DNA of 64,000 nt from Paraspadella gotoi (Eukaryota; Animalia; Chaetognatha): assembly GCA_051294375.1 (NCBI GenBank), contig CM119265.1, positions 17,263,172 to 17,327,171 of the forward strand. The letters are read 5' to 3'. The position numbers and the translations under genes were made by a program. Below are positions 10,501 through 60,066 of the stretch, piece by piece. Under the pieces are notes generated by a model. The model saw only the letters and a list, made by a program, of their open reading frames with translations. It was not told the origin of the DNA and made no database searches. Numbering within the stretch: the first letter of the stretch is position 1; each line of letters starts with the position of its first letter.

Positions 10501-13500
10501 CCATTAATTCCCCGCTCAAGGACGTCGTCTTCGGTTAGCGCGGCAGTCATTTTCCCGTCGAAACTTTGATTTTATTGAGTCTTTTTACAATTTCTCAGGT
10601 GCCCCGATGCCAACGAAGCGGTTATCGCAGAAGGCCGTGGCGTTGAAGGCGTGCCAGCTTCTGCACGAGCGAGGGGAACTTGACGACCACTTGTTGCCTC
10701 TGGGGAAGGATATCCGGGTGGAAGGAATGGAGGAGGACGATACTACGGAGGAAGAACGGGCCGAGTTGGTTCGCGCGGCCGAGGACGGCACGGCCCGGCC
10801 TGGCTCAACTAAGAGGCGCCAACATTACAATAAGAAAATTGCCGGTGATTTCTCTGCCTATTATTTATACTTTCTACCATGCGAATTTTTCGTACGGAGC
10901 AAAAAATAAAATCCCACTTCTTACGAACACCAGAAATGCTGTCGGACGGTCTTCCGGAAAACTCTAAACCCTGCTCCCTCTACGTACTCTCTATGCGACT
11001 GACTTGCCCGATCAGCGAGGCTCAAAATACCCGTGGTCGACGCATCTACTACCCCGAATCGACCACCCTGGGCTTTGGGGTATTAACTTGCAACTCACTT
11101 CCTTTTACCCCGGGTTTTCCCATTTACTCGCGGTCGGGCGAGGTGATGGTGGAGGTGGTGTTGGTCGACGATAACGTTGTTATGCCTGAGGATCAATATT
11201 GCCTTATTGTCAACTTTCACAAATTCGTTTTCTCGTCGGTCTTGCGTCTTGAGAAGGATCCCATGCAGTTTAATCCGAAAAAGGTGCGGCATTGTTGTGA
11301 TCATTTTATGTTTTTCGGTTCCATTTCACAATCAGTAACAATTATCGCTAGGCTCCAAGCAAATACTTCGTGGTCCCATTACAAATGAGAGCGAACGGCG
11401 AGCTCGGCAGCAAAGACTGCAAGATTGAGGCAGAAATCGATTGGAAGTTCATCGAACAAGGTTTCTGACACTCTTGATACATGATTGTCTAATTCTTATT
11501 AACGCTCATCTATTATCGATGTTAGTGAAAGAAACAGTGATGGAATTGAAGAACAGATTCAACACGGGCGAACACCCTCTCCCGGGCGGGTTCGTCGACG
11601 TTAAAAAGTACGATGACGCCGTGGTAATGCCCTGGTACCGGAACATGGACCAACCCCATTATTTTTACGTCGCCGAATTGTGTGCCAATCTGAACCCGCG
11701 AAGGTAAGTACGACTATTTTTACTAATTAACTCTTGCAATTTTCTTCAAGTGATTTCTATATTTTTAAAAGCGCGTTTCCCTCCGGGGAATACGACACCT
11801 TCTACGAGTATTATTACTCCAAATATGGCCTAGAGATTTTGGACAAAGAACAACCCCTCCTCGATGTGGACCACACGTCTCTCCGACTCAATCTGCTCAC
11901 CCCACGATACATGAACCACAAGGGTAATTGGGTCGGATTTGCTACTACCGCAACAGGATTGCAGCTTAAATAGTATTGTTTAAATAAATTTTACTTAGGT
12001 GTAATGTTACCGACGTCTTCGGCCGAGACGAAGAAAGCGAAGAGGGAAAATTTACAGCAGAAGCAAATTCTGGTGCCCGAACTATGCGACATCCATCCGT
12101 TTCCCGCGCCTCTGTGGCGCAAAGCAGTCTGCTTGCCAGCTATTCTGTATAGAATCAATTCGTTACTCATCGCCGAACAGGTTAATTTTGAATTTAGATT
12201 ATTGTATCATCAATGACAACATATTTTTTTCTTCTCCTAATACGTAGTTTCTCAGAGTTATCAGATGTATGTATTAATAAAGTGAATTAAGAACCAAAGC
12301 TGGCTAATAGGTTTTAAAAACTCCGCAAGCGAGAAAGCGGATGTTTCCGATATCCGGCTTTTAAACTTTTTTAAAAAAATTTAATTTAAATTAGTTCACA
12401 AAGCGTAAAATATATTTACTGACAAGAGCGAAAATTTTAAATAGTAAAATAAAAAAACTTTTCTGTCAGTTTTATTTAAAGAAAATAATTTTATGTTTAA
12501 CGTATAAGTCACAGCCCTGCTTTGTGAAGTATTGGCCGTTTATAAGTTACTTAAGTAAAACTTAGCTTTATATATTCAATGAATATTAGAGAGGAGCTCT
12601 TGAGAACAAAAATTTGATTTGAGTCAATTAACAATAATAATTTTATGCGAGAGAGTGTGATTATCGAGTACAAAAAGTATTTTGTTCATATTGTTTCGGG
12701 AATAGAAAAGCAAAATACAATATATTTATAGTATTATCTTTATAAAATATGGAATTTTGAATTTTTTATTATTAAAAATTCAGATTTCTCATAAAAAGTT
12801 AGACTAAAAATATAAAACAAGTTATCAACAATTTTTATATCTACAGTATTAAAAATAGAAAAAAAGGTCGAAATTCTCCACTTTTTCACTCTGTAGTAGA
12901 AACTATTATATGATAAACATTTTTTATTATTTTTCGCAGCTTTAACATTAAAATATTATATAATAATATATTATATAATAATATATATATAATAATAATA
13001 AATTTTACAAAAATTTCTCTTTTTTTCAAATTTTGAAATTTGGCGTTTTACGTTAAGTCACCATAATTTCATCTTTGAAAATTCTTCTTTCCCTAGTTAC
13101 GTAAAGAAATCGCTGAAAAGGCCTGTATCGGCGTTGTGCAACTCCCTGAAGAATATCCTTTCCCTCACATGGATTTTGGTTGGGGCAAGAGAAACGAAGA
13201 GGACGTTGAGCAACAACTTTGTATTAAAGGTAAACGTTAAAATGAAAGGAATCAGTAAAAGTTAGCAAAATAAAACGCTCGTCATAAAAGTATAAATATG
13301 AAAGAATGGAATCGGTTTCGTCACTCAGAACATATCATTAGATTGTCGATGGTGACGTAGTAATTCCGCCAGTGTTTCGAGGCGCGGATCTCAGTGATTT
13401 CGATACGCAGTTTGTTGTAGATTTTCCTCCTTCGCCGCTCGATGATGTAGTCGTTTCTTAGTTTGTCGTTCGACGACCCAACGTCTCGCAAAAGCGTCTC

Positions 13501-16500
13501 CCATTCACCCCCGATCGTTGCCGACAGTAGGTTGAAACGAGTAGGGGCCGAGCGCCAATTCCACGCCCCGAAGGTGACTCGTCCAAATCGCGTCGGTCGC
13601 GCGAAATTGACGTCGAGTCTGTGCGGGCAGGCGCGGCTGAGCGTGGAATCGCAGGAGCCGCCGCCATCGCCGAGTCGTAGCCAAGCGGACGACCAAACGA
13701 GTCCGTCAAGCGCGCGACGCGGTCCCCAGTAAGAAGACCACGACGACGTGGCGTTTACGATGGCTCCGGCGACTTTACCGGAGCAATGATGTCCACCGCG
13801 GTCGGACACATGGCCCATCCCCGTCGCTGTGGTTGTCCAAAGAAGAAAGGCTACGAGTACTTGAATAAGTTTTTTCATTGAGAAACAAGTAAAATTTTTT
13901 TAAAATATCAACGAAGGAAGTAAGCGTGGTTTATATTCGCGATAAAAAATATTATTCGTTGTAGTCGTGATCGAACCTAAACGGATCTGGATCATCGTGG
14001 GTCACGGTTTTTATTTAGTCTGCCTGCTAGGAGAAGACTCGCAAGACATGGTTGAAAAAAAAAAAGTCGTCTCACTGCATTCTTTTCTTCTTCCTATTTT
14101 TTTTTTAAGGCAACGAACCCTCGAAGAAAGCGACGGCGGAACCCGCGATAACTCGGACGTAGATTCCGAATACGACGACGACGACGACGATAGCGACGAC
14201 GACCTCGACGAGAAGGAGAGGGCGAAACGAAGATTAAAACGGACGACTGCCAAATACCAAAAGTCCACAGGTTTTTTTTTTTCGGCGTTCGCGCTTTTCT
14301 GAGTTCACAAGAAATAAAATGATAAAAGGAAAGGCGTCAGATTTTCAGCTGACCTAGTTTTATTACTTTTTATTTTTGTTTGTAATGCTGTAAAAATTAT
14401 GTGATTGAAAAGCATTTAGATCTAAATTTTTAAAGGCCAATTATACTATAAATTCTATTGTTAATCCTTTCCTTTACGGACCAGGGGAAACGGTGACATC
14501 AACGAGGCAATTGATTCACGATCCCTTGGCGGTCATCGCTGAACAAGGAATTCAAGACGATTATCCTGAAGGAGCCGGAACAGGTTTGGGTGAGTTCCTT
14601 AACACGTTCAGCCGATAAATAGAAAATGACCTCACCTGGAAAAGACGATAATTTTGGATTAAAATCTCAAATCTTTTTAATGATTACTTTGAGATATTCC
14701 TATTTTTTAAAAATAAAAAACCTCGAGCCTGAGCCGACGATAGACCTCTAGTTTTAATCTTTTCACCCCTTTTTTCGTGTTGCAAGCTCTATTTTAAATA
14801 TTTTTCTCATACGATTTGGTTACTTCTAAAAAAACATAATAAAGCGGCTCGGGTAGAAAAGACTCGTTGCTTTCCCTCGGGGATGGGCACTTACCCACTC
14901 GACCGACGTAACCGATGCCGAGCAGCAAGGCCGCAACAATCCGGATCTCTTTAATCATTAACGATCTCGTCGCGCCTTTTGAGATTTTCTCCCGATTTGG
15001 ATTCAGGGAGTCACCGCGATCCGTATCTCGATGACGAAGAAGACGAGTCTTTTTCTGACGACGACGGCGATTTCCCCGATTCGCCCTTCAACTTTGGCCG
15101 CAACGGCTTTTGCCACGGAGGGAGGAGTCATGGAGGTAAAGAGAAGAGGGGAACGAGTACTATATTGAATTAGTAAAATTTAAAAATGAAATTTAATTGA
15201 CTCAAAATGGATTGTTTCTATTTTTTTTTTCTTTCTGACAATGGATAAGATGGCATTGCCAACGATTTTGTTATCGGAACCTGGGATCCGAATGAGGCTT
15301 CGACGGCGGCTCCCTCGTGGATTCCTTCGCCACGCCCACCCTTGTCCTTTGCCGTCGGGGAGGAAGGAGACGCTTCTCCGGAGAAACCGCCGAAGGAATC
15401 GATGCCGGAAATAAGCTTCGGCGTTCCGGCCGTAGGTTAGAAAAATGAGAAGATAAAGGCGAAATTTTTTACCCAACTCCTTGCCTTCGTTTCACTCTCA
15501 GATATACTAAACTAAAGCACCTGGGCTTCCTCGGTTGCACTTATGCACCAGCGGCCGATTTCCTTTGTCAAAGTATTCCTTTTACTTCTCGATTTGGATC
15601 GGGTTATTTTTTCTTCGGTTTCTCTTTCCTTTTTATTTTTCTTGTTAATTAGGGTATTGTTCATTTTATCGCTCTTACTTTTTGTTATTAGATTCGCCGT
15701 CCTCGACGGTGAAGATCGACACTTGGGAGGACATTTCGCGTGATATGGCAGGGAGCGGCGAGGCGGGGATGGGATGGAACGACGCGCAAGGCATCGCCAT
15801 CACCGCCAGGGGAACCAGAAAGGTTAACGAAGGTATATTTTCTTTATTTATGTTATTATTTTTTCGTTTGTTTCGTTCTTATAATTTATATAATATTCTA
15901 CTGCAAAAAATGTTTCGATCCCTCGTTTTTCACAGCTCCTCCGGCTTCAACCAACGGGGCCTCACAATTCCCTGGGTATAGTGACGACGAGGACATGTCG
16001 AGTCTTAGCGACGACGACGGACTCGGCCTCGCCGCCGGTGATGAACTCATGATACTCGATTCCGGGATGGGAGATTTCAACTTAGGTAAATCCATTTATA
16101 GGTCGAAGATTTTTTGTTAAACTTTACTTTATGGCAACACTCGGGTTGCCTGTGATTCCCATTTGGAAGTGGCATCTCTCTGTTGGCTTTGAGGGCTTCC
16201 CTAGGACGGTCTCGCTTTGTCAACGCAGAGGGAAGTCGTAAGGACTGTGGATGGAACACAACGCCTGGGATGGTGTGTTCCCCCTCTGAGCCAATGGAAT
16301 TGGCTGAACGATGATGGATGTGAGGCGGCGTGAATATACCACCACAACTTATTCGTTCGATTTTTCAGCCTTTTTAGGAGAAACGTCAAACCTTAATGCC
16401 GGCAACAAAATTGAGACGAAGTTAAACGGAGAAATTCCTGCAACTTCCGGCAAGAAGAAAAAAAACAAAAAAGGAAAAGGAATCGGGAAATCGAAGAAAG

Positions 16501-19500
16501 ACTCGTCCCTTCCATCTCCTCCTCTCTCGTCTATCGCCTCTTTCGATTATTTCCCTCCTGCTGAAGAGAGCGATGAAGAAGCAGCGCCCGTCGTCGACGC
16601 CTCTGACGGCGCCCCGTCCCGTTCTCAAGCGGGCGCCTTTAATCATACCGATCCTCTCGCCAGCGGCAGCGTCCGCCTTTTGTCGCACTCGGAGAAGATA
16701 ATCGACGTCACAGAGGAAAATGGGACAGAAATAGGTGAGAAGAACGAATGGTTAGACGATGAGCATCGATACGAATTAGAAATTGTCACGGGTGTATCTT
16801 ATTTTGCAGCTTCCATCGCACCCACGTTGAAAGATGATGCTTCGTTCAGTCATAATTCATTGGATCGATCTTACGTTGAGTAAGTTCATCATTCTATCAT
16901 GTTGCTCCTCTCCACCTCGAAGAGGCAATGTGGTGGAGAATATCCATGAAGAATCCCGGTTATATTTGGAACCATACATTTTTTTTTAACTCTCCTTCAA
17001 TTTTGAAAAATTTTTCTCCATCAGTTCAAAAGCAATTTGTGATACGCAAAGCGCTTATAGCGAATCCTCCATTAAAAGTCACCACCAAGTCATTCACAAC
17101 TCGAGAAGTAACGAAGGTTGGTGTCCATGCATTGTTAGTTTCAGTGCTTATTTTCTTAAGCACATTTCCCTCGGACTTTCTCAGAAGTAATGGAAACCGA
17201 ACGTACCTCGTTTGATACCAACGGTCGTCCAACTGATGGCAAGTGTCTTGCGAATTTTTCGAAAGGAACCGCAGAACCAATGGACATATTATTGGGGGCG
17301 ACATCAAAGGTTATTTGTCATCATGTTATTTGTATCCTATTGACACTCTATTGACTCTCTCCTAAATTTAATATATTTTCGTCTGGTAGTTTCCTTGGAA
17401 CTGATTCTGGACTCGATAAATTGAAAGCTCGTTTTCTAATATGAAGACTTCTGTACTCTCAAGACAGTCACTCTGGGCTTGCTCACCTCAGTGTGCTGTC
17501 TTGGGAGGGGGCATGTGTGGCGAATCCTAAATTCGCCTCCCATATAGCTTGGTGAAACTCAGCTGGTCCCATTGCTTGAACAGCTCGTTCACCAACCATA
17601 AGTTCCTAATTCAATTCCCTCACGGTCACTCTGGTTAAGTGTGATGGTGTTGACGTAAAGGTCCAAAGCCCTGAGCGCCAGCTAACGGGAGATGCCTCAC
17701 ATTCAAGGGAACACATATGTCCCTGTTGCCCTTACGTCATTTTTTTTTGCAGCTAACTGTGAATATTGAAAGCGGCTGTGATAAGGGAAGCGAGGCTGGT
17801 CCTCTATTCGTCTCTCAATCGATGTCGTCAACGACTCAATCATCGCTACCTCTCTTCTCACTCGATGTTCAAGTTCCTCTGGAAACTCACCCTGGACCCA
17901 GTCCCTGTCTCATTCTCCAGGTCGGAAGGATGTTTCCTTCAACTATGACTATGACTATGAAATAACAATATGAAACGCAGTAATTTTTTTTTTTTTTTTT
18001 TTTTCATTAAATGTTTTAGGCGCTAACGATGTCTAACTCGAACGACGGCTTCAACCTCGAGCGCCTCGAGATGATCGGGGATTCCTTTCTCAAACAAGCG
18101 GTCACTACCTTTCTTTACTGCTCATATCCTCAGATGCACGAAGGACGTCTTTCGTTTTTTCGAAGCAAGCAAGTGTCGAACTACAATCTCTACAAGCTTG
18201 GTCCGTTTCATTTTTGCCCTTTTTGTTTTTCCTCAATCGATTTAGCTCAGTGTCCGCTCCTTCCAGGAAAACGCAAGGGTCTACAAGAATGCATGATCGC
18301 GACTAAATTCGAACCGTCGGAAAATTGGTTGCCGCCAGGCTTCAGCATCTCCCAAGACAGGGCCTTCCCCATCGCCAAGTGGGCCGTGGAGATGGCCAGG
18401 AAGGAGGCGGAGAAGGCGGCTAAGGCCAAACTAAAGGGAAAGGGTAAGAAGTCCAAAGAATATTCGCCATCAAAAGAGGGACAAGCCGATCAAGAGGCGA
18501 CTGCCTCTTCGGATGACGGCAGCGGCGCCGCTGAGGGCGCGGACCAAGCTGCCGCCGAGATTTCGGCCGAGCAAACTGAGAGTGATGAGCCGAAGGGTGG
18601 TGAAGAAGCGGAGACCAATGGACAATCTGAGAACGTCGAGAACGTCGAGGAGGAGGCTGTTGAAAAAGAGACTGAAGAAACTCCGGACGACGCATTGGCT
18701 GCGCCGACGAAAGCCAAGGACCTAGATTTCACCAAATTACACGCCACGCTGTATAAAGACACGGACATAGAGCATCTTCCATATATCCTTCAAGTGAGTT
18801 TTGATAAAATGACACGGGCCGTATGAGCCAACTGGTTATCAAAATTTTTCCCTAGATTCAGCACACGCTTCCCGACAAGAGTATCGCCGATTGCGTGGAG
18901 GCGCTCATTGGGTGTTACTTGACCGAATGCGGTCCGCGGGGAGCCCTGTTGCTGATGGCGTGGCTCGGCCTCCGCGTTCTGCCCAAGAAGGAAAAAGTGA
19001 TGGTTGACTTGGACGAGGAGGATGCTGACAAACTGATGGAGACGGGGGATGCCGATGACCGGACCGAAGCTCTCGATCCGGCGGCCTTGACTTGCGGTTA
19101 GTCGTAGGAAAAAACTTTGAATTTCTTACATATTTTCTTTCCTTCATTTTTTTTTATCCCTTTTCAGCCCTGATAGACAAAAACTCCGGTCCTTTGAAAG
19201 AAGGAGCGTCTTGGATGCACTTACCCAGACCACCGTCGCCGCTGTTGAACCATCCCAAATCCCATGAAAAACTCGAAAATTTGCTGACGGGTTTTGTAAA
19301 GTTCGAGGAAAAGATCGAGTACAAGTTTAGAGATCGGGCTTACTTATTGCAGGTGAGAAAGCCATTCAATTTTCGATGATTGTTTAAGCCTTTGTAAATT
19401 GTTTGTTTTTAACTATACAACCGAAAAATTTATTTACACTAAAGTTTTTTGCTTTAACCGATTGTCACGGAATCGTCAATCCGGATTTTACTTTTAATCT

Positions 19501-23153: not shown

Positions 23154-26100
23154 TCAATACGAGGAGCGAAATTTCAATTGGGCGTTGTTGTTCCAAAAGT
23201 AGGCGTGGCAGGCGAGTCCCGAAAATGAGTTTGTGGGGTCCGTCCCGTTGTCGGAGCCGGGCTCATCATTCCGCGGATCCCGCTCGATTTGGGGGAAGCG
23301 TGACCTCCGCCGAATACTTGCTGCGTCAATATGCTGTCGACGAGTACAGAAGGGGGGGGGGAAATCTTTAGGAAATTTTTTTAAGTGAATTACTAAGTAA
23401 AAACTCAAAATCATTTTCCAAGCTACTTAGATACTTAACATTAACATTTTCACTACTTGATTGATTTTTAATAAATTGACAACTAATATCAGCAAGATTA
23501 AAAATTGTTTGTATACCAGGAGTAAACCAACGACCTGTTTCTATTTTGTGCCATCTGTAGATCTCTTCTGATAAAGTCGCACTCGCAGCGAAGCATTGAC
23601 AAATCGCTTTCTATCAATCGCCTAAAATATGAAGTGGAAAAAATATTTTTGTTGTTATCCCTATCCTGAAAGGAACAATTTTAACTGGTGTCTGACATAT
23701 TTCTGTGTCGGTTCTGACCGACTTTATTCTTCTCGCAATAAAGTATTGTTTAAAGTAACCAGGCACAGGTTTTTAGTTTCCCCTTAGCCTTTTGCTCCCG
23801 ATCGGAATTGAAAATCTGGCGCGTTGAAACCCGGAAGATTTGACGTCATCATCAAGCTTCATTCGAACCTCTGTGTGTTTGCAGTCTGCAAAGCCGCTTC
23901 CAAATCTTTGATCGTTTGATCTGCTTTGTCAAACTGTCTTTTCGTCACAAGAAGCTCGTCGCTGGTTCAAAAAAAGAAAAAAATGCCAGTGTGAAGAGAA
24001 AGAAATAATTATTATGAAATTGGTACAACCAATATAAAAATTATCCATTCAATTAGAGACAGGACCGTTCAATACACCTTGTTACAGCATGTTTTTTGAA
24101 AGACTTACCGCGTTTTGGTCCTGTCTCGCTCGAGCTGCGCCAGTTTTCCTTTCAGCTGCTGGTTCTCGATAAAAGTCTCTTCGCTGGCCCTATCCTTTTC
24201 GGTGTTGTAGGTAACTGTACCCAGAGTTTCCTCCACCTGTAAAACGCGAGTGGGGTTAGATACATTACACCAATTCGACCTTAGTAAGTCTCGGCATTAC
24301 TTTATAGTAAAGTTTGTCGTTGTCCGATTGCGCGGTGTTGAGAGCGGCCTCCAACGTTTTGATTCTTCTCACGAGGTGTTCGTTGCTTAATTGCTGACGC
24401 TGATTGGCCAATCTAACCAGAAGAAAAATTAAAATCACATAGTTGAGAAAGTAACGAGGAACATTATCAAGAATAAAACCTCTTTAACTCACGTCAATTC
24501 TTCGTTTTCCCCCCGCAGTCTCCTCGACTCTTCCTTGCTTTTGTCCAACATGTTGTTCAAACTAGAAATTTTCGCCGCCATCTCTCTTTGAGCTTTCGTT
24601 AACTTTGACCTCAGCAAGTCCTGTGAAAAATTAATGGGAATTACACTCAAGGACCCAAACGAGTCTTTCCCCTTTGGGTCTCACCTTTTCAATGACGACG
24701 CTGCTTAGCTTCTGCTTGACCTCTAATAATTGCAACGCCTCCATCCCGTTGGCGTCTTCCGGGGCCGCCGCTTCGGCGCTGCTTCCGGTCAAAATTGAGG
24801 CGGCGGACTTGGGCGATACGCGGGCGGCGAAGCGGGGCGGTGAGTCTCTCTCGTTAATTGGGGAAGAAGTAACGGATCTGAGTGAATGAACGGAGTCAAT
24901 TTTAAATATTATTATTTATATTTTAATTACTATATGAATACGACCTCTCTGGCGTAGCGCGGATCGTGGCTCTCGGTTTCGTCGCCCTTTCCGCTGCCCT
25001 CGGCCCCGACGGGCTTCTCGTTTCCTTCCTTCCTTTTTCGTCTCCTTTCTCGTCAGCCTCCCTTTTCACCTCCATCAATTCCCCAGCCTCGCTCTCATCT
25101 CCTTCGTTATTCTCTCCATACTTTCCTTTTCCTTTCTCTCGGTCCCCCTCCTCCCCCCCTCGCTCCTCCTCTCCGTTCTGTTTTCCCTCGGTTTCGTGCT
25201 TTTCACTCTTTGCTCTCCGTTCTTCATCGATTTCTTCGTCCTGAGTAGAAAGAAAAGGTAACCATTTTTACCCTTTTTATTTCTTTTTTTTTTTCATAAA
25301 TTTTCTTTGTCGCTTCGTCGGTGACGAATGAGTATTTGATTCTTTTCTACGTCATTAATTGAAAGGAGACGGAGAGGAGGAAAAAGAATTAATGAGAAGA
25401 AACTGCGTCGCTCCCGTTTTATATTATCAAAGTGAGAAATAAATTGCTAGTTTTTTAAATGACATTTCAAGAGGAAAGTTGGGATTCGGAAGTCGTTTTA
25501 AATCTAATACGTCAAGTACAAGTACGCTTAATGCAAATTATACGGGTTTAATATTGGCTAAATCTTTATTTGACTTCTCTGTTTTATCTTATCCATTGTT
25601 TTAACCTTCTCTGAGGGTACTTTTTCTTTCGATTTGTTCAACGAGTTGTCACTGATTTTGGACGTTGATTCAATCGACATATCGGAATTATCCTTGTGCT
25701 TCCTCCCGCCTTTCGGTCTTTGCGTCGGCGTCGCTGATTGAGACTTCTCGAAACTCGCAGCATGAGGAGGCGTGGCGTCCGTCACCTTTTAAAATCCGAG
25801 TTTTTCTTTCTCACCACGCTCATCTTTCTATTTCAGCTGTCTTTTAATGATTCATTTCTTTTTTTCTATTTTCTTACTTTGTTTTTGGTTTGTTTTCCTT
25901 TTTTCTTACTTTGTTTTTTCTTGTTCACTTTTTTTTTTATTTATTTCTATTTTTATTTATTTATTTTTATTTTTCATCAGATTTTTATTTTTGTTTGTAT
26001 TTTTTTCTTTCTGTCTTCTCTTTCTTACCTTAATCTTTGGAAACTGTTCCTTATCTTTTGAATTTCTCCTCGAGCCTTCATCCACCGCCATCGCATCCTC

Positions 26101-38189: not shown

Positions 38190-38833
38190 TGTGCACTAGG
38201 GTGGAGTGATGAAAAGATTGAGCGATGGAACAATGTTTTTTTGCTGCCTTTGTATATGTAATATAAAATAATTAAGCCCTTTTTTAAAAAAAAATTACAT
38301 AACAGTATCATTAATTAAATTTTTTTTATAGTAATATCCTTATAAAATCATAAAATTTTAAAATCATATTTTTTTTAATTTTAAGAACTGTTTTGGATTC
38401 GCCGGAAAAAACTGAAAAACTTTTGTAAAATATGTTTTATGATATTTTTAGGTTAAAGCTGCGAAAAATGACCAAAACGTATCATATATATATATCATAT
38501 AATAGTTTTTACTACAAAGTAAAGAATTTGACCTTTTTTTTCCATTTTTGACGCTGAAGACATTGAAATTTTTAATAACATATTTTATATTTTTGATCTA
38601 ACTTTTTATGAAGAATTAGAATCTTTAATAAAAATTTAAAAAAAACTATTTAGAAAATTTATCATTTTATAAGAATATTATTATAAATATATTGTAATTA
38701 ATGATACTGTTCCCCAAACAATATAAGCAAAATATTTTTTGTACTCCTTAATCATACTATCTCACGTCTAAATATCCTTGTTTGATCACTCAAATAAAAT
38801 TTATGTTCCCCAGTGCTCCACTCTACTGTGCAC
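38190..38833. mobile_element. Degenerate MITE-like element with terminal and internal inverted repeats
   Basis: gtgcactagggtggag ... ctccactctactgtgcac ends; internal IR ~38300-38360 vs ~38655-38711; related copy at 12586-12960. Confidence 0.55.
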
Positions 38834-38880
38834 GGCAAGGGAACATTTTAAACACCCAACAAAAAAGAGGCATCATGGTA

Positions 38881-39920
38881 GAGCCAAACTTCGTCAATGG
38901 GGTGGGTCAGAAGTTTGATTTGGGAACCTTTCCAAATGAAACTTCATACATTTCTAAGAAAAATTTCAATGGACCAAAATTTTTTAAAATGGCTAGAAGC
39001 ATTAGTAATTAATTTTTTAATATTTATTTATAGATAGAAAATGTCAAAAAAATTTTTTTGAATTTTGTATTTTTAAAAGCAGATTCAAATAGCTTATAAA
39101 AAGTTATTTGCACAAAGTATAATTCTTTTTTCAATATTTTGATGATAAGTGGGTTAAAATTGGGAAAAACCTTAAAAAATCATCATCATCATCATCATCC
39201 GATGATTTTAGCAGTTTTTACTAATTTTTAATAATAATAGATCAAAATTTTAAAAAGTTGTAATTATATTTTTTGCTTAACTTTTTAAGCTCTATCAGAA
39301 TCAATTAAAAAAACTTAAAATATCCCAAAAAGATTTTTGACATTATATAGCGATAAAAAAATAATAATTAACTAATTACTCATGGTTCGGAACATTTTTG
39401 CCATTAAAATTTGAATTCGGTCGGCTACCGCTAATCATGGGTCATGAAAAACATGCAGAAAAACAGCCCTTTACTTTCGGAGTCATCTTTTATTTGCTGT
39501 AGCCGACCAAATTCAAATTTTAATGGGAACAGCATTAAACTAATCCATTATTGGTATTAATTATTGTGTTAAAATATTTTTTTGCAAAAATGTTCCGAAC
39601 CATGAGTAATTCGCTATTTTTTAATTTTTTTTAGATATTTTAAGTTTTTTTAATAGATTTTGATAGAGCTTAAAAAGTTAAGCAAAAAATATAATTACAA
39701 CTTTTTAAAATTTTGATGTTTTATTACTAAAAATTAGTAAAAACTGCTAAAATCATCGGATGACGATGATGATAATGATTTTTTAAAGGTTTTTCTCAAT
39801 TTTAACCCACTTATCATCAAAATATTGAAAAAACAATTATACTTTGTGTAGATAACTTTTCATAAGCTATTTGAATCTGCTTTTAAACTTCTGACCCACC
39901 CCATTGACGAAGTTTGGCTC
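38881..39920. mobile_element. Foldback non-autonomous DNA transposon (GAG...CTC termini, possibly Sola-like)
   Basis: Perfect 36-bp TIR GAGCCAAACTTCGTCAATGGGGTGGGTCAGAAGTTT, plus ~250-bp internal IR (39074-39325 vs 39634-39885) and nested IRs at 39373-39610. Confidence 0.85.
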
Positions 39921-40166
39921 AACTTTTATCCTTCATCTTTTTTTACTCATATCTCTCAGCCTGGTGAATCCCAATCCTCATTTTCCCACCTCGTTTCTCG
40001 CTAATATTTCATGAAGAAAGAGTCGAGCCTGGTCACTAAGATAACCGGCGTTTTCTTAAACCTATTCCCTTTTAATTCTTTAAACCTAAACAATAAAAAT
40101 CGATTCTACGCTTTTTTTCTTTTTTGAATTCTTTATTTTTTTTTAAATTCATTTTTTGACGAAAAA

Positions 40167-41862
40167 ATGGTTGACGGCAAAGACAAAAAAGAGGAAGAGT
40201 CGACGATGACGACGAAGACGATGCCGAAACAGGCGTCGACGATGAATCTGACGATGGGGATGCTCGTCGCCAACAACATCAACACCAACAAGAAAGACAA
40301 GAAAGATAAGAAGGAGAAGAAGGATAAGAAAAAGAAAGATTCTCAGGACACGGATAGCCAGAAAAAAAACAACAACCGTAACGATAACGATTTGGGACAA
40401 AACCAAAACGCCAAGAAGAAGGACAAGGACAAGAACAAGGACGACAAGGAATCCAAAGGTGGCAAAGGCACCCAGGATGAAAGAGGACTCGAGTCTGGGA
40501 CGACGATGAAGGTCAGTTCGACTCCGAACCCCACCCCACCCCTTTAACGAGGCCACCCTGCCTGCCTTCTGGAGATAGGATAGCTGAGAAGGTCTCACTT
40601 TACTGTCTTTGTCTTAATATAATATATTAAATGAATGGATAATTTTTATATTGGTTGTACCAATTTCATATACATATAATATAATATTGTGGCAGCAAGA
40701 CTTAAAGCTGCCTCACTGCTGTCCGTCCTCAGCTCGTCTCCAATGGCTGAGCAGGCTAAATCATCTCATTCCACTCGCTGCGTCACGGGTTTAATCCCTG
40801 GTATCCCGGTTCTGGCTTAAATTGACGGTGCCGGTATAAACATGCCAGTGACAGGTGGCGGTCACTGAGGGTCCGCAGCCCCTACGCCAGTTGGTGAGAT
40901 ACCCCGCGCCCCGGGTATCACAGGCTATCCTCCCGTTGCCATAAGTGGTGAGCCCTACTCTCGAACACGCAACCGCTGCGCACCGTGCGCCCACGCTTAC
41001 GTCGCTTAGGGTATGCATATCACGCCTATGCCCTACTTCTCTGGTAAGCTCCAGACTCGCTCGCTCGCCGCTCGCTCTCACTATGGCAATGAGATCAAAA
41101 CCTTCTCTCAGACATCTCCTCAGGATTTGAGGCCCCTGTGGAGAAGTCTGGTGGGGGATCCTGTGGCAGCAAGACTTAAAGCTGCCTCACTGCTGTCCGT
41201 CCTCAGCCTCGTCTCAATGGCTGAGCAGGCTAAATCATCTCATTCCATCCGTGCGTCCCGGGTTTAATCCCTGGGTATCCCGGTTCTGGCTTAAATGTGA
41301 CGGTGCCGGTATAAACATGCCAGTGACAGGAGGCGGTCACTGAGGGTCCGCAGCCCCTACGCCAGTTGGTGAGATACCCCGCGCCCGCGGGTTATCACAG
41401 GCTATCCTCCCGTTGCCATAAGATATTAATATTTTAATATTCCAGAACAGGAACCAAGGCCCGGATATGACTCAAATGGCGACGAATCAAGATCCGGCCG
41501 CTGAAGAAGCCCCCTCGCCGGATCAGGCCGACGCCGAAGCGGAAGAGCACGAGGAGGAGGACGACGTAAGGAGAATTGCTCGAGCCCCAATCTTCGACGA
41601 TTGTTATCTTCTTTTTTTTTCTTCTTTTTATTTTTATCGCAGATCGAAAGATGCGAAGTCGGCGCCCACGATCCCGAGGAGATTCACAAGATCCTCACCA
41701 AGATCCACTTCCCCTCCATGCATCCCATGTTCCTCGCCGAGAACGTGGCGCCCGCCGTTCTGCCCTCCAATCTTCTCTCCGATCACGAGATGGTCACCAT
41801 CTTCGTCGATTGTCTCTCTCGATCCCCGAACAAGTTTAACCTTTTTCCCAACGACAAGAGGC

Positions 41863-41922
<60 letters not shown>

Positions 41923-43631
41923 AACAAAGAAATAATAACAGAAAGTGAGATATATTGTATTTGAATTCACTTCTTGAGTTATATCAGTCGCTTTTAAGGG
42001 CCTCACTTAGTGCCTAAAGCCTCACTCGGAGAAATGTTCAATGTTCTCTCTCTCCCTCCCAGATCGATCACGCCTCTGCTGTCGATCCGCCCGATCCGGT
42101 CGACGGAACGCCCCTTCACCATAGAATTCAATCGGAGAGATCGAATCGGAAAAGAATTGAAGCAGAGGATCGAACTCGTGTCCGGCTTACCCCCGGATAG
42201 ATATACTCTAAGATCGCAGGCGTGAAATAGGATAGAAAGATTATTGTATAGGATATTGTAGACAACAAAAAAAAAGACAAGAAATCTTTTAATATCTTTC
42301 GCGCCCATTTTTAACTTTGATGACAGGACGATAACGTTAATGCGAAATTACAAGTGGGTCCCGACTCGGTGACGGTCGGCGACTTGGGTCTAAAAGAAGG
42401 GGACAAGCTGGAACTTGTCCAGTCTATTAGGGTCAAGGTTATCGGACCTCTAGCTGATGATTACGGCACTGGTGAGCGATGTGATCGTCGAAAAGGTAGA
42501 CGTTTGTGTTGAGATAAAACAAAAAACGAGTGGTCGTCGTTTGAGTATCCCGATATAACCCGATATCCCGATATAAGTCGGCTAATTCATAAAACTAAAA
42601 AATATCACGAAATTACTAGTGATTATTAATATAATTTAACTCCTTTCTAGAACCGGATTATATGAACGACGGGGGGCAGAGCGAGGGCTGCAACGCTCGC
42701 TGTGCCGGCCCCTGCGCCTTCCCGGCTCCGCCCTGCAACGACGCGCCGGCTCCGTGTTACCGTAACACCCTCGGCACTGTCGACGTTATAGAAACTGACA
42801 AGATGCGCGATTTAAAACCTAAAGTTCAAAGGTCCCAACTTTAAGTTAGATTAAAAGAAAACAGTTTAGGGATTCCTTCAACGTATGTACCTAACTCGCT
42901 CTAGAAAACAAAAACAAAACAAAAAAGTTTACTGATCATTTTAACTCTAAAACAGCACAAAACAACAACGAAAACAATAACCAGAATAAAATCAACAAAC
43001 CATAAAACCACAAGTACCCTCGCTCACCCATTTTTTTAACTATGTTTTTTCTCCTTCATCGTTTTCCGTTGAAGGGGGAGTCAGCGCAGCTGGTCATAAA
43101 TTTTTACTAACAACACACAGAAGGGCCCACCAAAAAAAAACAAACGAAAAAAACTTTTCACGAATGTCCCAAGTAAATTTCTCATTTCCCCCAGCGCCTC
43201 CACCTCCTCTTCTTCCTCATCCTCTTCCTCCTCCACCTCCTCCTCCAACCCCTTCCCTGCTCTTGCTCAGAGTACTCCAAGATCGAGGTATGAACGTCGA
43301 TGGCCTCGTCTTCAAGAGCAAATGCGGTGAAGTCTGCGATTCAGCGGGATTCTTCGAGTGCAGCGTCGACCACACCGGCTGCGGTCCCTGCGGTCCTTGC
43401 GGTCCCTGCACCGGGCCGCCGCAGCGGGCCGCCCGGTACGAAGACGACGTATTTATAGGACGCGGGGGCCCTCGAAGCAGCGAGGAAGGCGATCCATGCG
43501 GGCCCTGCGGACCCTGCGCCCCATGTGCCAGCGGTATGGGCCCCCGCCGCGGGGGCGGAGCCGCTGACGAGTATTGCGCCAAGCCCGGATGCGACGAAAC
43601 GCGGTGCGTCGGTGCTTGTCGGCGAATGTGA
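40167..43631 (+). CDS. Uncharacterised protein: Lys/Asp-rich N-terminus, ubiquitin-like domain(s), Cys-Gly-Pro repeat tail
   Basis: Exons at ~40167-40511, 41446-41565, 41643-41860, 42063-42219 (IGKELKQRIELVSGLPPDRYTL), 42328-42471 (TVGDLGLKEGDKLELV), 42651-42830, 43271-43631 (CGPCGPCGPC). Linking all exons into one gene is inferred. Confidence 0.55.
40812..40890 (+). ncRNA. Twister ribozyme, P5-type, copy 1 (1-nt deletion in P2 3' strand)
   Basis: Same as 41286-41365 but AAATTGA replaces AAATGTGA; predicted site U40837^A40838. Confidence 0.65.
41286..41365 (+). ncRNA. Twister ribozyme, P5-type, copy 2 (apparently intact)
   Basis: CUGGC-UUAA-AUGU-GA-CGG-UGCCGGUA-UAA-ACAU-GCC-AGUGAC..GUCACU-G-AGGG-UCCGCAGC-CCCU-AC-GCCAG: P5, P2, P3, P4, T1 (CCG/CGG) and T2 (GC/GC) all pair; predicted site U41312^A41313. 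Confidence 0.8.
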
Positions 43632-44526: not shown

Positions 44527-44534
<8 letters not shown>

Positions 44535-45010
44535 CCAAATTATACCAGTTAACCAAATTATGTCGGTTGACCAAATTATTGACCAATTTATGCAAGTTGA
44601 CCACATTTTGCAAGTTGAACAAATTATAAAAGTTGAAAAAATTATGCCAGTTGACCAAATTATGCCTGTTTACCAAATTATGCCGGTTGTCCAAATTATA
44701 TCAGTTAACCAAATTATGCCAGTTAACCAAATTTTGTCAATTGACCCATTTATGCAAGTGGACCAAATTATGCCAGTTGACCACATTTTGCAAGTTGTCC
44801 AATTTATACAAGTTGAAAAAATTATGCCAGTTGACCAAATTATGCCAGTTGACCAAATTAAGCATGTTGACCAAATTATGTCACTTGACCAAATTACATC
44901 AGTTCACCAAATTATGCCTGTTGACCAAATTATGCCAGATGACCAATTTATGCCAGTTGATTAAATCATGCTACTTTATTAAATTATTAAAGTTGACCAA
45001 ATTATGCAAG
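44527..45010. repeat. 18-bp minisatellite, consensus GTTGACCAAATTATGCCA
   Basis: About 25 degenerate tandem units read directly. Confidence 0.92.
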
Positions 45011-45464
45011 TTGGTATTGGCACAGCAACTGGTAATGATAGATAGATCAATTGAATTATAGATTTTTTTTCGTAGATTTATTAAGAAGTCTGTTTTGATT
45101 GGTTATAATCACAAATTGAGAGTCAGAAAAATTACCATGATTTATCACCGGATTATTACCGCTTACTTATTATCGTAGGCAGATCCGACATTGTTTGCTC
45201 AAACTCGTTTATCTTTAATTCGTCGCACTCTCGCTCTTCTTGTCGATCCGGTTCGACGGCGGACTTTTCAGTGCGGAACTCGGGGGCCCCGATTGAAGAG
45301 AGGATCCGGTTTTGCTGTCCGGCAGAGACGTCGAAATGCGGAGGCGGTTTTCGAGATCGATTTACGCCCATCCATCCTCGAAAGATCTTGGTGGGCTTGG
45401 GAGAAAATTGGATCGGGTCGACCGACTTTTTTTTTTTTCTGAATCAAATCAATTTTAATTTTTT

Positions 45465-51284: not shown

Positions 51285-54110
51285 TTATAACCAAACTACC
51301 TCGTCATCCGCTGCGTTTATGTTTCTTGAGCGTTGCGACAGATTGAGGTTAGGTTCCTTAGAGAGCGACCTCGATTGGCGGACATGATCTGTGCGTTTCG
51401 ATCGCCAGGACGTGTCCCTTGGCGACCAAACCTGTCTCTTGCTGGAGGAGCGTTTCTTCTTTCGGCCACTCGCGTTTTTCGGTTTAGCTGGTGAGACGTT
51501 TCGGTCAGTCGCGTTAGACAACGACGCGTCCTTTCGATCCTCCCTTCCTTTTTTTCCGCCGACGCCGGAACATCGCCCACTCGATCGTACAGTTTCCCTA
51601 TGATTTTGAGACGATTTGACTGTTTTGTTGACGTCCCGATTCTCGGCGTTGAAATCCATAGATTAAGAAAGATCAGTGTTGGGCACGGAGATACGAGACG
51701 GATCTGACTGGTGAAGTTCGGTATCAGTTGAATGGCTGAGGCTCGAGTTAAAATTTTTCTTACGCTCCAATATGAATTTTAAAAAAAGCTCAAATTTGAA
51801 AAAAAAAATAAATAAAAACGTAAGAATTAGCTACGAAATGCCTAACTTAGCTTTTAATGTTGATGATGAAAAAGGAAAATTTAAAAAACAAAACGTAAAA
51901 AACAAATCAAAATTAATCTTTGATATCGTGTACACTGTTCGTGTACAGTGTACACTTAACACTTACAAGCTGTCAGCAAGCGTAAAACAATATTTCTTGT
52001 ATCAATTCCTTGGCCGATTAAAAACATAAATACGCTTGTTTCTTTCCTTAAAATTAAGGAGCTTATCATAAATTTAAAATTGATATAGCATGACGATAAA
52101 GGAGATGTTAAAAATAATTATTAAATGACATCGAGATTCTCACGGTCTACCGATATAAGGAAAAAAACAAATAAAACGAAATAAACGTATAACCGCAAGT
52201 TGACATTTATGCGTATGTATTTTATCACGATACGTCAGCTCTTACAAAAAATTACAAGTCACAAGAGCATTATTGTAATTTTACGTTTAATTTTAATTTT
52301 AAGAGCGTTTCTTCACTTCACTGTTTCTACCATGTTGGACTGAACTATTTTTTTTAAAAATCGGTGTAGTAAGATTTATCTTTGGTCACTTTGCTCTTCG
52401 CGTAACAACTGGCGGGCGTGTTGGGCATTCCTGGACCTCGGATCGCTTCGCCCCTAAGTGCAAAAACTTTGTTTTAATCAAGGATTGTTAACCAAAAAAA
52501 TGAGCGAGAGATACCGTTTGTAAAAAATCCCTATGCTGTGATCCGGAATGGGATTAGACTCGTAATATCGCTGGCGCATGTCGTCGTCATCGTCGTCGAA
52601 CTTTTTCATCGGCTTCGCTTTTTCCTTCGACTACCGATGGCATCAATATTGTTTTATTTCCTATTTTTCTTTTTATTTAATTATAATTCAAAATAGACGC
52701 AAATCACAGGACCCGTCATTTACTTTTGTTGCCCGGGAAACCGCGTTCTGGTTCTTCTTCTGTAAAGTGAAAACCAGGATAAAAAAATGAAAAATATATC
52801 ACTAACTAAGTAATAAAGTCGGCTAAAATTTACCTTCGGGTCTTTTTTCTCAAAATTTTCATTTTGACCCTCTGTTATTGCCGTTTCTTTTTTGTCTGTC
52901 TTGCTTATTGACTTGCTTTTGACTGACGTAGCATTCAGGTTTCCACTTTTCAAATCTTTAGCTTTGAATGATATGTACTGTAAATAAGTATTAAAATTGT
53001 TACAGAAGGTTACCACCCATCTCATTTGCTTCTGGCCGAGTTCGCCTCGGACGACTTTTAAAAAATTGTCCGAAGTTGCAATACATTACGAAATGATAGG
53101 TGCCACCGTATCCGGCCGTACAAAACCGTTTCTGGCCTTTTAGTCAGTCCATAGTTCTTATTCGAGAACCGTTCTGTCTGGGACTCCTGCCCTATTGCTT
53201 TTTATGAACAACGGTTGGCGCCGCAGAAGAGTTTTTCGGTATTAAGCTCCTCCGTGCACAAAAATTCTTACCTGAATATCTTTTGAGGGTTTGCTACGAT
53301 TGAAAGCAGTGGGCCTTCCCTGTACGTATAAGTATCAAAATAATTTTGTTCGTAATTACTTGCATCGCTTTAATTTAACATAGAAAACGGCAAAATTGCT
53401 TAATATTTAGATTGCATATCTATGTCTAATTGTATAATATATATATATATATATGTATATTGCGGCGGTATATTCACACCGCCTCACATCCACCATTGCC
53501 CCAGAGGGGGAACACAGCATCCAAGGCGCTGTGTTCCTTCCACAGTCCTAACGACTTCCCTCTGCGTTGGCAAAGCGAGACCGTCCCAGTGACTGGCGTC
53601 ACTGAGGGTCGGAAGCTCCCAAAGCCAACAGCGAGATGCCCCATCCCAATGGGCATGAAAGGCAACCCGGCTGTTGCCATAATCTGTCTAATTGTCTACT
53701 AGCTATGGGATTGACTCAACTGATTTTGAGCTCTTTCGGCTCCCGCCATTAGTGATCTTGGAACCCATCAATTTATCACTGAAGAACGGTAAAACAGATG
53801 CCAAGGTACTAAAAATCGTTAAATTCCTACGATTTTAGTAGAACAAAAAACTTACTTGTAAATCGAGTTAACATTTTTCCGTTCTGCTGTTAATACGTTT
53901 GCTAATTCGTCCTCAAACGCCGAGTCTGAATAAAGCGCTCTTTACGAATTTATTGATAATCGAACTTACTAATTTAATCAATTAATGCTTACAATTTTTA
54001 CGGTTTCGTCGCATTTCGAGCTTTTTACTTCTAAACTATATTCGAGTATTCTATCATTTAAATTTTTCACTATTTTGTCAAATTGCTTTAAAATCGCATT
54101 TTTCGCAGTC
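51285..54110 (-). CDS. Possible multi-exon gene of unknown function (Ser/Lys/Arg-rich)
   Basis: Several exon-like blocks with splice borders (53991-54110, 53855-53935, 53272-53325, 52833-52978) and ORF 51285-51659; no recognisable domain. Confidence 0.3.
53467..53682 (+). mobile_element. Twister-retroelement subfamily A; ribozyme remnant 53566-53629 lacking the cleavage site
   Basis: GTTGGC-AAA-GCGA-GA-CCG-[P1/UAA/P2 deleted]-CAGTGAC..GTCACTG-AGGG-TCGGAAGC-TCCC-AAA-GCCAAC; ends GTTGCCATAA; TGTCTAATTGT on both flanks (53423-33, 53685-95). Confidence 0.8.
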
Positions 54111-59788: not shown

Positions 59789-60031
59789 TTATGGCAATTA
59801 TGGCAATGGGGAGACATGTGTGATATGATTCCCTGGGTTTGAGGCATCTCCCGATAGCTGGCGCTCAGGGCTTTGGACCTGAAGAAAACCACCCCATGTT
59901 ACTGGCGTGTTTATGCCGACTCCATCACACTTAACCAGCGTGACCGTGAGGGTTGGTGAACGAGTCCGAGCCATTGGGACGAGCTGATTTTCACCAAGCT
60001 ATACGGGAGGCGAATTTAGGATTCGCCACAC
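59789..60031 (-). mobile_element. Twister-retroelement subfamily B, downstream of the NEK4 stop
   Basis: Homologous to 17514-17734; tail is (TTGCCATAA)2 on the minus strand. Confidence 0.82.
59857..59939 (-). ncRNA. Twister ribozyme, P5-type
   Basis: GCUGGU-UAA-GUGU-GA-UGG-AGUCGGCA-UAA-ACAC-GCC-(imperfect P3)-CAGG-UCCAAAGC-CCUG-AGC-GCCAGC; predicted cut between 59913 and 59912. Confidence 0.78.
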
Positions 60032-60066
60032 AATAGTATTTCGTTGTTTTTTTTTGTTTTTTTAAT

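What the first reader, a model, noticed from the sequence alone, without database searches (positions are those of the whole stretch)
40688..41422. Twister-based retrozyme: a 474-bp partial tandem with two self-cleaving motifs
Seen: a non-coding GC-rich unit repeated ~1.5 times, each repeat holding a P5-permuted twister fold, with predicted cut sites 475 nt apart (40837, 41312). Known: described metazoan non-LTR retrozymes are short tandem units, mostly hammerhead-based, processed into monomers and circRNAs; twisters are known from RTE-type retrotransposons (e.g. Schistosoma Perere-3). Inference: this is a twister-driven retrozyme whose transcript would excise a ~475-nt monomer able to circularise, and the 1.5-mer could record reverse transcription of a circle.
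Basis: partly seen in the sequence, partly recalled or inferred. Interest (0 to 1): 0.93.

Follow-up and report, generated by a model that had tools for sequence, protein, structure and literature searches.

The report
Twister-ribozyme LTR retrozyme in an animal
This 733-base piece of animal DNA is a small LTR-type jumping gene whose two end repeats each carry a tRNA-derived promoter sequence followed by a twister self-cutting RNA fold (damaged in the left repeat of this copy), so intact copies would likely cut out a roughly 475-base RNA and close it into a circle, a design I found described only for plant elements with a different ribozyme; cutting and circles are untested.

Summary
The repeat and the twister fold are real, but this is not a non-LTR 1.5-mer. 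It is a miniature LTR retroelement: LTR (40688-40943, TG..TA), tRNA-Trp primer site, short centre, purine tract, LTR (41162-41420), 4-bp target duplication. Related solo LTRs lie elsewhere in the window, and public reads show a high-copy family. Each LTR holds a tRNA-derived A/B-box promoter (as in Helenus TRIMs), and just downstream a P5-permuted twister. The twister has both pseudoknots and 5 compensatory pairs against a sister solo LTR, but scores below Rfam's cut-off. The right-hand twister matches the family's main contigs; the left one lacks one P2 base in this copy. Most likely mechanism (inferred): Pol III starts upstream of the ribozyme, two cuts free a ~475-480-nt monomer, a host ligase closes it, and a tRNA-Trp-primed Gypsy (CsRn1-like) helper reverse-transcribes and integrates it, as proposed for plant LTR retrozymes. 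Published animal retrozymes lack LTR, PBS and PPT and use hammerheads. Published Trp-primed wasp Helenus LTRs appear, by eye, to carry an unremarked hammerhead at the same position. Cleavage, Pol III use, circles and the helper are not shown.

The parts
40684..40687 (+). left target-site duplication ATAT
   Evidence: sequence; right partner is AGAT 41421-41424 (one mismatch), or exact ATAT 41423-41426 if the AG spacer was kept
40688..40943 (+). 5' LTR, 256 bp, TG...TA
   Evidence: same ends in solo copies
40737..40800 (+). tRNA-derived head in 5' LTR: A box from 40744, B box from 40788
   Evidence: A+B pair found only in the two LTRs, 0 in 100 shuffles; start inferred from the 3' LTR alignment
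40812..40890 (+). P5-permuted twister, left copy; predicted cut 40837^40838; P2 damaged by a 1-nt deletion after 40822
40946..40996 (+). tRNA-Trp(CCA) primer-binding site, extended: antisense to acceptor end, T arm and D arm, anticodon arm omitted
40946..41161 (+). internal region, 216 bp; 41075-41095 is predicted to pair with the LTR 3' end and PBS start
   Evidence: no plus-strand frame of 120 codons or more; fold
41150..41158 (+). polypurine tract, 3 nt before the 3' LTR
   Evidence: sequence; contigs of 4 of 4 runs add one more G
41162..41420 (+). 3' LTR, 259 bp, TG...TA
   Evidence: loose ends begin before 41162 in X5, X9, X11
41211..41274 (+). tRNA-derived head in 3' LTR: A box 41218-41229, B box 41261-41271
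   Evidence: colinear with a tRNA-Lys(TTT) gene from its first base, 0 of 300 shuffles as good; reads carry C at 41265, the canonical B box
41286..41365 (+). P5-permuted twister, right copy, intact; general-base G41299, predicted cut 41312^41313
   Evidence: matches the main contigs of X6 and X10 with 1 difference and no gap
40838..41312 (+). predicted cut-to-cut monomer, 475 nt (about 480 in the family's main contigs)
   Evidence: z -3.06 linear, -3.2 circular, 62% paired
41421..41424 (+). right target-site duplication AGAT (or ATAT at 41423-41426)
40512..41445 (+). host-gene intron that contains the element in sense orientation
   Evidence: exon-exon joined contig in X9 (loose end before 41444)
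59838..60032 (-). sister-subfamily solo LTR with intact twister (59930-59867), TSD ATTG/ATTG, B box deleted
17514..17710 (+). decayed solo LTR of the 59.9-kb subfamily; deletion from just after the cut site through P3
53460..53681 (+). solo LTR of a third subfamily; keeps P5, P3, P4 and a reversed T1 pair but lacks the cleavage strand
16129..16347 (-). solo LTR of the third subfamily, TSD AAGT/AAGT, further deleted

Best explanation
A non-autonomous LTR retroelement (TRIM) of an invertebrate-type animal genome whose LTRs each carry a tRNA-derived promoter sequence and a twister-ribozyme fold, and which likely propagates as an LTR retrozyme through a self-cut circular RNA. Shown: LTR/PBS/PPT/TSD anatomy, A and B boxes, the twister fold with covariation, tRNA-Trp complementarity, a multi-copy family. 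Inferred: (1) Pol III starts near LTR position 50, about 100 nt upstream of the cut, so both twisters are transcribed; read-through of a host intron could do the same. (2) Cuts at U^A in both LTRs release a ~475-480-nt monomer with 5'-OH and cyclic-phosphate ends and no repeated R. (3) An RtcB-type ligase closes it. (4) tRNA-Trp anneals over the extended PBS, and a CsRn1-like Gypsy RT copies once and a half round the circle, rebuilding LTR-centre-LTR without a first strand transfer. (5) Gypsy integrase inserts it with a 4-bp TSD. This particular copy probably cuts well only at the right-hand site.
For: Anatomy; solo copies with exact 4-bp TSDs in 2 of 4, one mismatch in a third, none recognisable in the fourth; loose ends at the LTR edge in 3 of 4 runs. 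PBS: a window-derived pattern hit 129 metagenome loci, 115 of them tRNA-Trp(cca) by ARAGORN; best duplex with that tRNA among 6381 window tiles, -63.8 vs next -58.0 kcal/mol. Promoter. Twister: 60 of 62 cells paired, 5 of 21 pairs with compensatory change in P2, T1, P3 and P4, none in six slid controls. A divergent contig in X13 adds a compensatory P1 pair, two pair-keeping changes and the canonical L4 A. The four positions intolerant to any change in Osa-1-4 are all kept. The departures from Osa-1-4 were measured active there: A28C 1.00, C27G+G47C 0.86, C27A+G47U 0.83 (read by eye from a machine-parsed table). Tandem twisters make circles in mammalian cells and RtcB ligates retrozyme monomers (passages). 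Same layout, by eye, with a hammerhead in two Trp-primed wasp Helenus LTR consensuses.
Against: No cleavage, RNA end or circle junction was observed; all runs laid were contigs. Rfam scores are below threshold. The left twister is damaged. P1 is only 1-2 bp. The isolated twisters do not fold better than shuffles (z +0.43 and +0.63). From the predicted start, the minimum-energy fold (-46.8) beats the twister-constrained fold (-41.1, pseudoknots not counted). Covariation rests on two lineages plus one contig. One of 13 control windows folded with a stronger z (-4.3, 8 shuffles each) than the monomer. 3 of 4 solo LTRs have lost the cleavage region, and the third subfamily persists with a PBS though its two copies here lack the cut site. 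No helper element was seen (no genome held).
Confidence: 0.62

Rival explanations
1. A Helenus-type Pol III TRIM with an active twister that only trims a linear RNA, for example by defining the 3' end in place of a T-run terminator. Replication goes by ordinary strand transfer on uncut or singly cut RNA with a ~100-nt R, and circles are absent or a by-product.
For: Many Helenus LTRs seen have a T-rich run after the tRNA-like part, whereas here the twister follows and the first TTTT is in the flank at 41432. A competing fold could slow the 5' ribozyme. A subfamily without the cut site seems to persist.
Against: The two LTRs are copied from one template, so both carry the same ribozyme; double cutting removes R and leaves circularisation as the route. 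The monomer is more self-paired than shuffles.
Confidence: 0.24
2. An ordinary TRIM in which the twister is a captured relic or is no longer active; the TATAAA over the cut site could be a Pol II signal.
For: Sub-threshold Rfam scores, minimal P1, deletions in 3 of 4 solo LTRs, damaged left copy.
Against: Compensatory changes in P2, T1, P3 and P4 between subfamilies and in X13. Main family contigs keep the intact motif. The sister LTR reads CATAAA, not TATAAA.
Confidence: 0.09
3. One reading: a non-LTR tandem retrozyme or Penelope-type partial tandem, the 1.5-mer being a record of reverse transcription round a circle.
For: A 511-nt contig in X5 closes on itself as a 480-nt cycle. Twisters in Penelope-type pseudo-LTRs were noted in other genomes by this scan (unchecked).
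Against: PBS directly after the first copy, PPT directly before the second, TG..TA ends, 4-bp TSDs and solo LTRs are what metazoan non-LTR retrozymes lack (passages). The cycle is expected from any LTR-internal-LTR DNA in an assembly graph, and X5 is guessed to be DNA.
Confidence: 0.04

Closest known systems
Plant LTR retrozymes (Cervera et al. 2016, PMC4918200; passages read)
   Same: Ribozyme inside each LTR, short centre with PBS and PPT, 4-bp TSD, solo LTRs, self-paired monomer with the ribozyme predicted to be blocked, Gypsy-dependent model.
   Different: Animal host; twister instead of type III hammerhead; tRNA-Trp instead of tRNA-Met PBS; tRNA-derived Pol III boxes in the LTR; monomer ~475-480 nt instead of ~600-1000; circles not shown here.
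Helenus / TRIMp3 (Kojima 2024, PMC10886601; main text parts 1-4 of 6, supplement parts 1, 5, 6, 9 of 11)
   Same: TRIM under 1 kb, tRNA-derived A/B boxes in the LTR, PBS, PPT, 4-bp TSD in animals, Trp-primed families exist.
   Different: The paper describes no ribozyme (the word occurs once, in a reference title; 'twister' 0 times). Six twister L4 motifs and six motifs from this element were not found in its supplement (line breaks can hide matches).
Metazoan non-LTR retrozymes (Cervera and de la Pena 2020, PMC7229834; passages read)
   Same: Animal host, short unit between two self-cleaving motifs.
   Different: They lack LTR, PBS and PPT, use type I hammerheads, are under 50% GC, occur as multimers and have longer TSDs.
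Twister T-variants of Schistosoma Perere-3 RTE (Liu et al. 2021, PMC8501958; passages read)
   Same: Twister with a reduced P1 serving a retroelement.
   Different: One 5'-end ribozyme on an autonomous non-LTR element; no LTR, no paired cuts.
CsRn1-lineage Ty3/Gypsy elements (PMC3630058; passages read)
   Same: tRNA-Trp PBS and typical 4-bp TSD. Five metagenome loci have a CCA-containing Trp complement extended over 32 nt or more, one upstream of a retroviral-type protease.
   Different: They are autonomous and coding; no such element was found in this window, and no genome was held.

Membership tests
Twister ribozyme (type-P5 permutation) | U^A site, general-base G, conserved core (G13, G30, A46, G48 equivalents) | tested here: met
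   U41312, G41299, G41319, G41353, A41300, G41302
Twister ribozyme (type-P5 permutation) | Helices P2, P4 and pseudoknots T1, T2 with covariation | tested here: met
   60 of 62 cells paired, 5 compensatory pairs; right copy and sister LTR complete, left copy lacks one P2 base
Twister ribozyme (type-P5 permutation) | Rfam gathering score | tested here: not met
   17.7 of 67.2 bits (twister-P1); 20.3 of 37.6 bits (Twister-P5, sister LTR)
Twister ribozyme (type-P5 permutation) | Self-cleavage | not testable with these tools
   only contigs available
TRIM (non-autonomous LTR element) | Two LTRs, PBS, PPT, short TSD, under 1 kb, no gag-pol | tested here: met
   a 131-codon minus-strand stop-to-stop frame (40791-41186) was not tested
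Helenus / TRIMp3 | tRNA-derived A and B boxes inside the LTR | tested here: met
Helenus / TRIMp3 | 4-bp TSD in animals | tested here: met
Helenus / TRIMp3 | Transcription by Pol III | not testable with these tools
   absence of TTTT in the element is uninformative (1389 of 2000 shuffles also lack it)
Plant LTR retrozyme | Self-cleaving ribozyme in each LTR, PBS, PPT, 4-bp TSD | tested here: met
Plant LTR retrozyme | Type III hammerhead and tRNA-Met PBS | tested here: not met
   twister fold and tRNA-Trp PBS; no hammerhead hit at E<=10
Plant LTR retrozyme | Accumulation of unit-length circular RNA | not testable with these tools
   a circle junction is identical to LTR sequence in contigs; no raw reads offered
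Plant LTR retrozyme | Highly self-paired monomer (over 70% paired reported) | tested here: inconclusive
   62% paired, z about -3.1 to -3.2; 1 of 13 control windows stronger
Metazoan non-LTR retrozyme | No LTR/PBS/PPT, type I hammerhead, GC under 50%, multimers | tested here: not met
Client of CsRn1-lineage Gypsy | tRNA-Trp PBS and 4-bp TSD | tested here: met
Client of CsRn1-lineage Gypsy | Autonomous partner with matching ends in the same genome | not testable with these tools
   no genome held

The most novel reading that the evidence does not exclude
Animals harbour an overlooked class of LTR retrozymes: Pol III-promoter TRIMs that place an interchangeable self-cleaving ribozyme (twister here, hammerhead in Trp-primed wasp Helenus) just downstream of a tRNA-derived promoter, make abundant viroid-sized circular RNA and feed it to a tRNA-Trp-primed Gypsy reverse transcriptase. 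It would be a natural, genome-encoded twister-twister circularisation cassette.
Probability: 0.5. Interest if true: 0.86.

Novelty: new variant of a known kind. Interest (0 to 1): 0.74.

Why it matters
Reviews divide retrozymes into plant LTR forms with type III hammerheads and animal non-LTR forms with type I hammerheads. This element breaks both rules at once, and it links two separately described groups, retrozymes and Helenus/TRIMp3. It gives the twister a testable natural role in an LTR element and predicts a specific 475-480-nt circular RNA. It offers a short, fully mapped system for asking whether an LTR reverse transcriptase can use a circular template with no R region, a step proposed for plant retrozymes and bearing on the origin of viroid-like RNAs. 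It also suggests that repeat libraries already hold more such elements unrecognised.

Tried and rejected
Rfam at gathering score over the whole window: 0 hits. ARAGORN on the window: 0 tRNAs; Rfam found no tRNA at E<=10 in the element, so both tRNA-derived parts are below gene-finder level. No genome held, so no copy count, empty-site allele or helper search. Run search: no RNA holder listed on record; X9 and X10 are RNA by guess only, and depth figures were not used as copy number or expression. The closed 480-nt cycle in X5 was rejected as evidence of a circle. One X9 contig begins at 41314, next to the predicted cut, after unrelated sequence; single contig, not used. Viral-contig scans for the PBS pattern and the twister core: 0. 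No relative of the element among the 129 metagenome loci by blastn or among 7 of them by my covariance model. The P1-type fold suggested by Rfam was rejected because its T1 partner does not pair. Lack of TTTT: not significant. One search used a miscounted structure string and is void; one search replaces it, with P5 left out because it is offset by one column in that alignment. Earlier-findings look-ups by sequence, place and eight words were empty. L059's frame looks by eye like a CsRn1-type gag but gave no gag family in Pfam.

Full report
Observation. The window holds two direct copies of a GC-rich sequence at 40688-40943 and 41162-41420: 256 and 259 nt, 250 identities, 4 mismatches, 7 gap columns. 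The host is an animal: compact intron-containing genes with RNase III, ligand-gated channel, SRCR and EGF domains (8 and 21; 7 of 10 frames tested had a Pfam family), and a Nek4 fragment whose best named relatives are a mollusc (84%) and a lancelet (81%) protein. No genome was held.

It is an LTR element, not a tandem. Each copy runs TG...TA. The first is followed by AG and then TGG; the second is preceded by a purine tract. The flanks are ATAT and AGAT, or ATAT and ATAT if the AG spacer was retained on the right. Four related single copies lie in the window. Two have exact 4-bp duplications (AAGT at 16.1-16.3 kb, ATTG at 59.8-60.0 kb), one has a one-mismatch duplication, and one has a decayed end. 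In public runs, contigs diverge into unrelated flanks exactly before 41162 in 3 of 4 runs laid, and one contig shows the TA end followed by another flank. Run X2 laid 8128 contigs on the 1101-nt stretch, many of them on a separate 46-nt repeat beside the element, so the family is multi-copy; depth was not read as a copy number. The stretch is held by 13 of 17 listed runs from 7 studies.

Primer site. I recalled that the start of the centre resembled the complement of tRNA-Trp and tested it. The centre aligns to three such tRNAs with 2, 0 and 14 of 2000 shuffles scoring as well. The 62-nt tile at the PBS forms the best duplex with the animal-type tRNA-Trp among 6381 tiles. The predicted pairing covers the acceptor end (imperfectly), the T arm and variable region and the D arm, and leaves the anticodon arm folded. 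Five of the 129 loci carry a CCA-containing Trp complement of 32 nt or more, one upstream of an aspartyl protease, so long Trp complements occur in other retroelements. A Trp PBS with a 4-bp TSD marks the CsRn1 lineage of Gypsy (PMC3630058, passages). Contigs in X5 and X10 show that the third subfamily also joins its LTR to this PBS.

Promoter. A paper search led to Helenus, TRIMs with a tRNA-derived sequence in the LTR (PMC10886601). An A box plus B box at tRNA spacing (consensus recalled) occurs only twice in 64 kb on both strands, once in each LTR, and 0 times in 100 shuffles; with one more mismatch allowed, shuffles gave 18. The one B-box mismatch in the window (T41265) is C in nearly all depth in 4 of 4 runs. 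The segment 41211-41274 aligns colinearly to a tRNA-Lys(TTT) gene from its first base, better than 300 of 300 shuffles against 65 tRNAs; that set is Trp-heavy, so the isotype is not established. The predicted start lies about 100 nt upstream of the cut, so a transcript from the 5' LTR would contain both ribozymes.

Twister. In the 3' LTR the order is P5, P2' (41295-98), G41299-A, T1', a 2-bp P1 hairpin, U41312^AA, P2, GC (T2), P3, P4 with loop UCCGCAGC, P5. Rfam scores are weak. My descriptor finds this copy and the sister LTR strictly, and the left copy only when P2 is relaxed to 2 of 4 pairs; shuffles gave 0 and 2 hits in 150. On the three-sequence alignment 60 of 62 cells pair, and 5 of 21 pairs change on both sides (P2, T1, P3, two in P4); 4 of 500 shuffles reach this and six slid controls give none. 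This is in effect two lineages. One divergent contig in X13 adds a compensatory P1 pair, a G-U to A-U change, an A-U to G-U change and the canonical loop A; 31 rows of that table were not shown. In the rice twister only four positions tolerate no change, and P1 is dispensable (PMC5113685, whole main text); all four are kept. Its supplement (part 6 of 12, machine-parsed, read by eye) gives relative activity 1.00 for A28C, 0.86 for this element's T1 pair and 0.83 for the sister's; the combination was not measured. Against: isolated folds are no better than shuffles, a competing fold is 5.7 kcal/mol lower before pseudoknots are counted, and the left copy lacks a P2 base. The family's main contigs match the right copy (X6 and X10: 1 difference, no gap). 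The window differs from contigs of all four runs by several shared indels, so the left-copy deletion may be decay or an assembly error.

Monomer and expression. The cut-to-cut RNA (40838-41312, 475 nt) folds better than 100 of 100 linear and 60 of 60 circular shuffles, 62% paired, with the ribozyme halves held apart; 1 of 13 control windows was stronger. X9, RNA by guess, has contigs joining 40511 to 41446 and another exon pair, so the element lies in a sense-strand intron (40512-41445), and it has a contig over the centre. This is compatible with transcription of the family but shows neither strand, ends nor circles.

Mechanism. Shown: anatomy, promoter boxes, fold, primer complementarity. 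Inferred, following the plant model (PMC4918200, PMC7761336; passages): double cleavage removes the repeated R, ligation restores a continuous template, tRNA-Trp primes, and a Gypsy RT and integrase finish. RtcB ligation of retrozyme monomers and twister-driven circle formation in mammalian cells are reported in PMC7229834 (passages). I put this at 0.62, a linear end-trimming role at 0.24, an inactive relic at 0.09, and the non-LTR reading at 0.04.

Comparison and novelty. It passes the TRIM and Helenus sequence tests, works like a plant LTR retrozyme but fails its hammerhead and tRNA-Met features, and fails the metazoan non-LTR retrozyme definition. Ten paper searches (seven of them aimed at this combination) listed no description of a twister in an LTR element or of an animal LTR retrozyme. 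I saw most hits as listings only. I also read passages of PMC6765202, PMC6154101, PMC8501958, PMC9901934, PMC11722881 and bioRxiv 2022.07.19.500677. The library lacks most subscription papers and Repbase; bioRxiv supplements were closed and could list twister circles of this kind; the 2020 review mentions unpublished insect elements with type III hammerheads. In the Helenus supplement (parts 1, 5, 6, 9 of 11 read), two Trp-primed wasp LTR consensuses starting TGTGG carry what reads by eye as a type III hammerhead just after the A/B boxes, which the paper's text does not mention. I did not fold or score it. If right, it is an independent case of the same design.

Verdict. Observation partly confirmed, interpretation partly supported and re-classed. 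New variant of a known kind; interest 0.74.

Noticed in passing
PMC10886601 supplement, Helenus-2_SyJa-LTR and Helenus-2_SyUm-LTR: By eye, a type III hammerhead (CUGAUGA core, GAAA, three stems, loop-loop pairing) lies just downstream of the tRNA-like promoter in two Trp-primed wasp Helenus LTRs; not mentioned in the paper's text.
   Followed up: partly
window 53460-53681 (+) and 16129-16347 (-): Third LTR subfamily keeps P5, P3, P4 and a reversed but still complementary T1, yet both copies lack the ~14 nt holding the cleavage site and P2 strand; it still occurs joined to the Trp PBS in X5 and X10. Either a ribozyme-dead parasite or an enzyme-strand-only twister that could act in trans.
   Followed up: partly
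window 40625-40670 and 24013-24055 (-): A 43-46-bp end fragment of a different, very high-copy repeat sits 17 bp left of the element; reads share one upstream continuation and diverge into AT-rich flanks after 40670; it contains a small hairpin.
   Followed up: no
window 38858-39943, 38301-38825, 12587-12973: AT-rich foldback (MITE-like) elements with long inverted arms just upstream.
   Followed up: no
window 40128-41945: Host gene with low-complexity first exon and no Pfam match, spliced across the element in X9; the element ends 25 nt before the 3' splice site.
   Followed up: partly
L034 and L059: Two or more tRNA-Trp primer sites in tandem, the first extended over 32 nt; L059 is followed by a gag-like frame with a C-H motif (by eye).
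   Followed up: partly
window 44527-45061: 18-bp-period tandem array with open frames in two phases.
   Followed up: no
window 7553-18826: Dicer-like gene in many exons (helicase-like start, RNase III domain at 18020-18826); two solo LTRs (16129-16347, 17514-17710) lie within its span.
   Followed up: no
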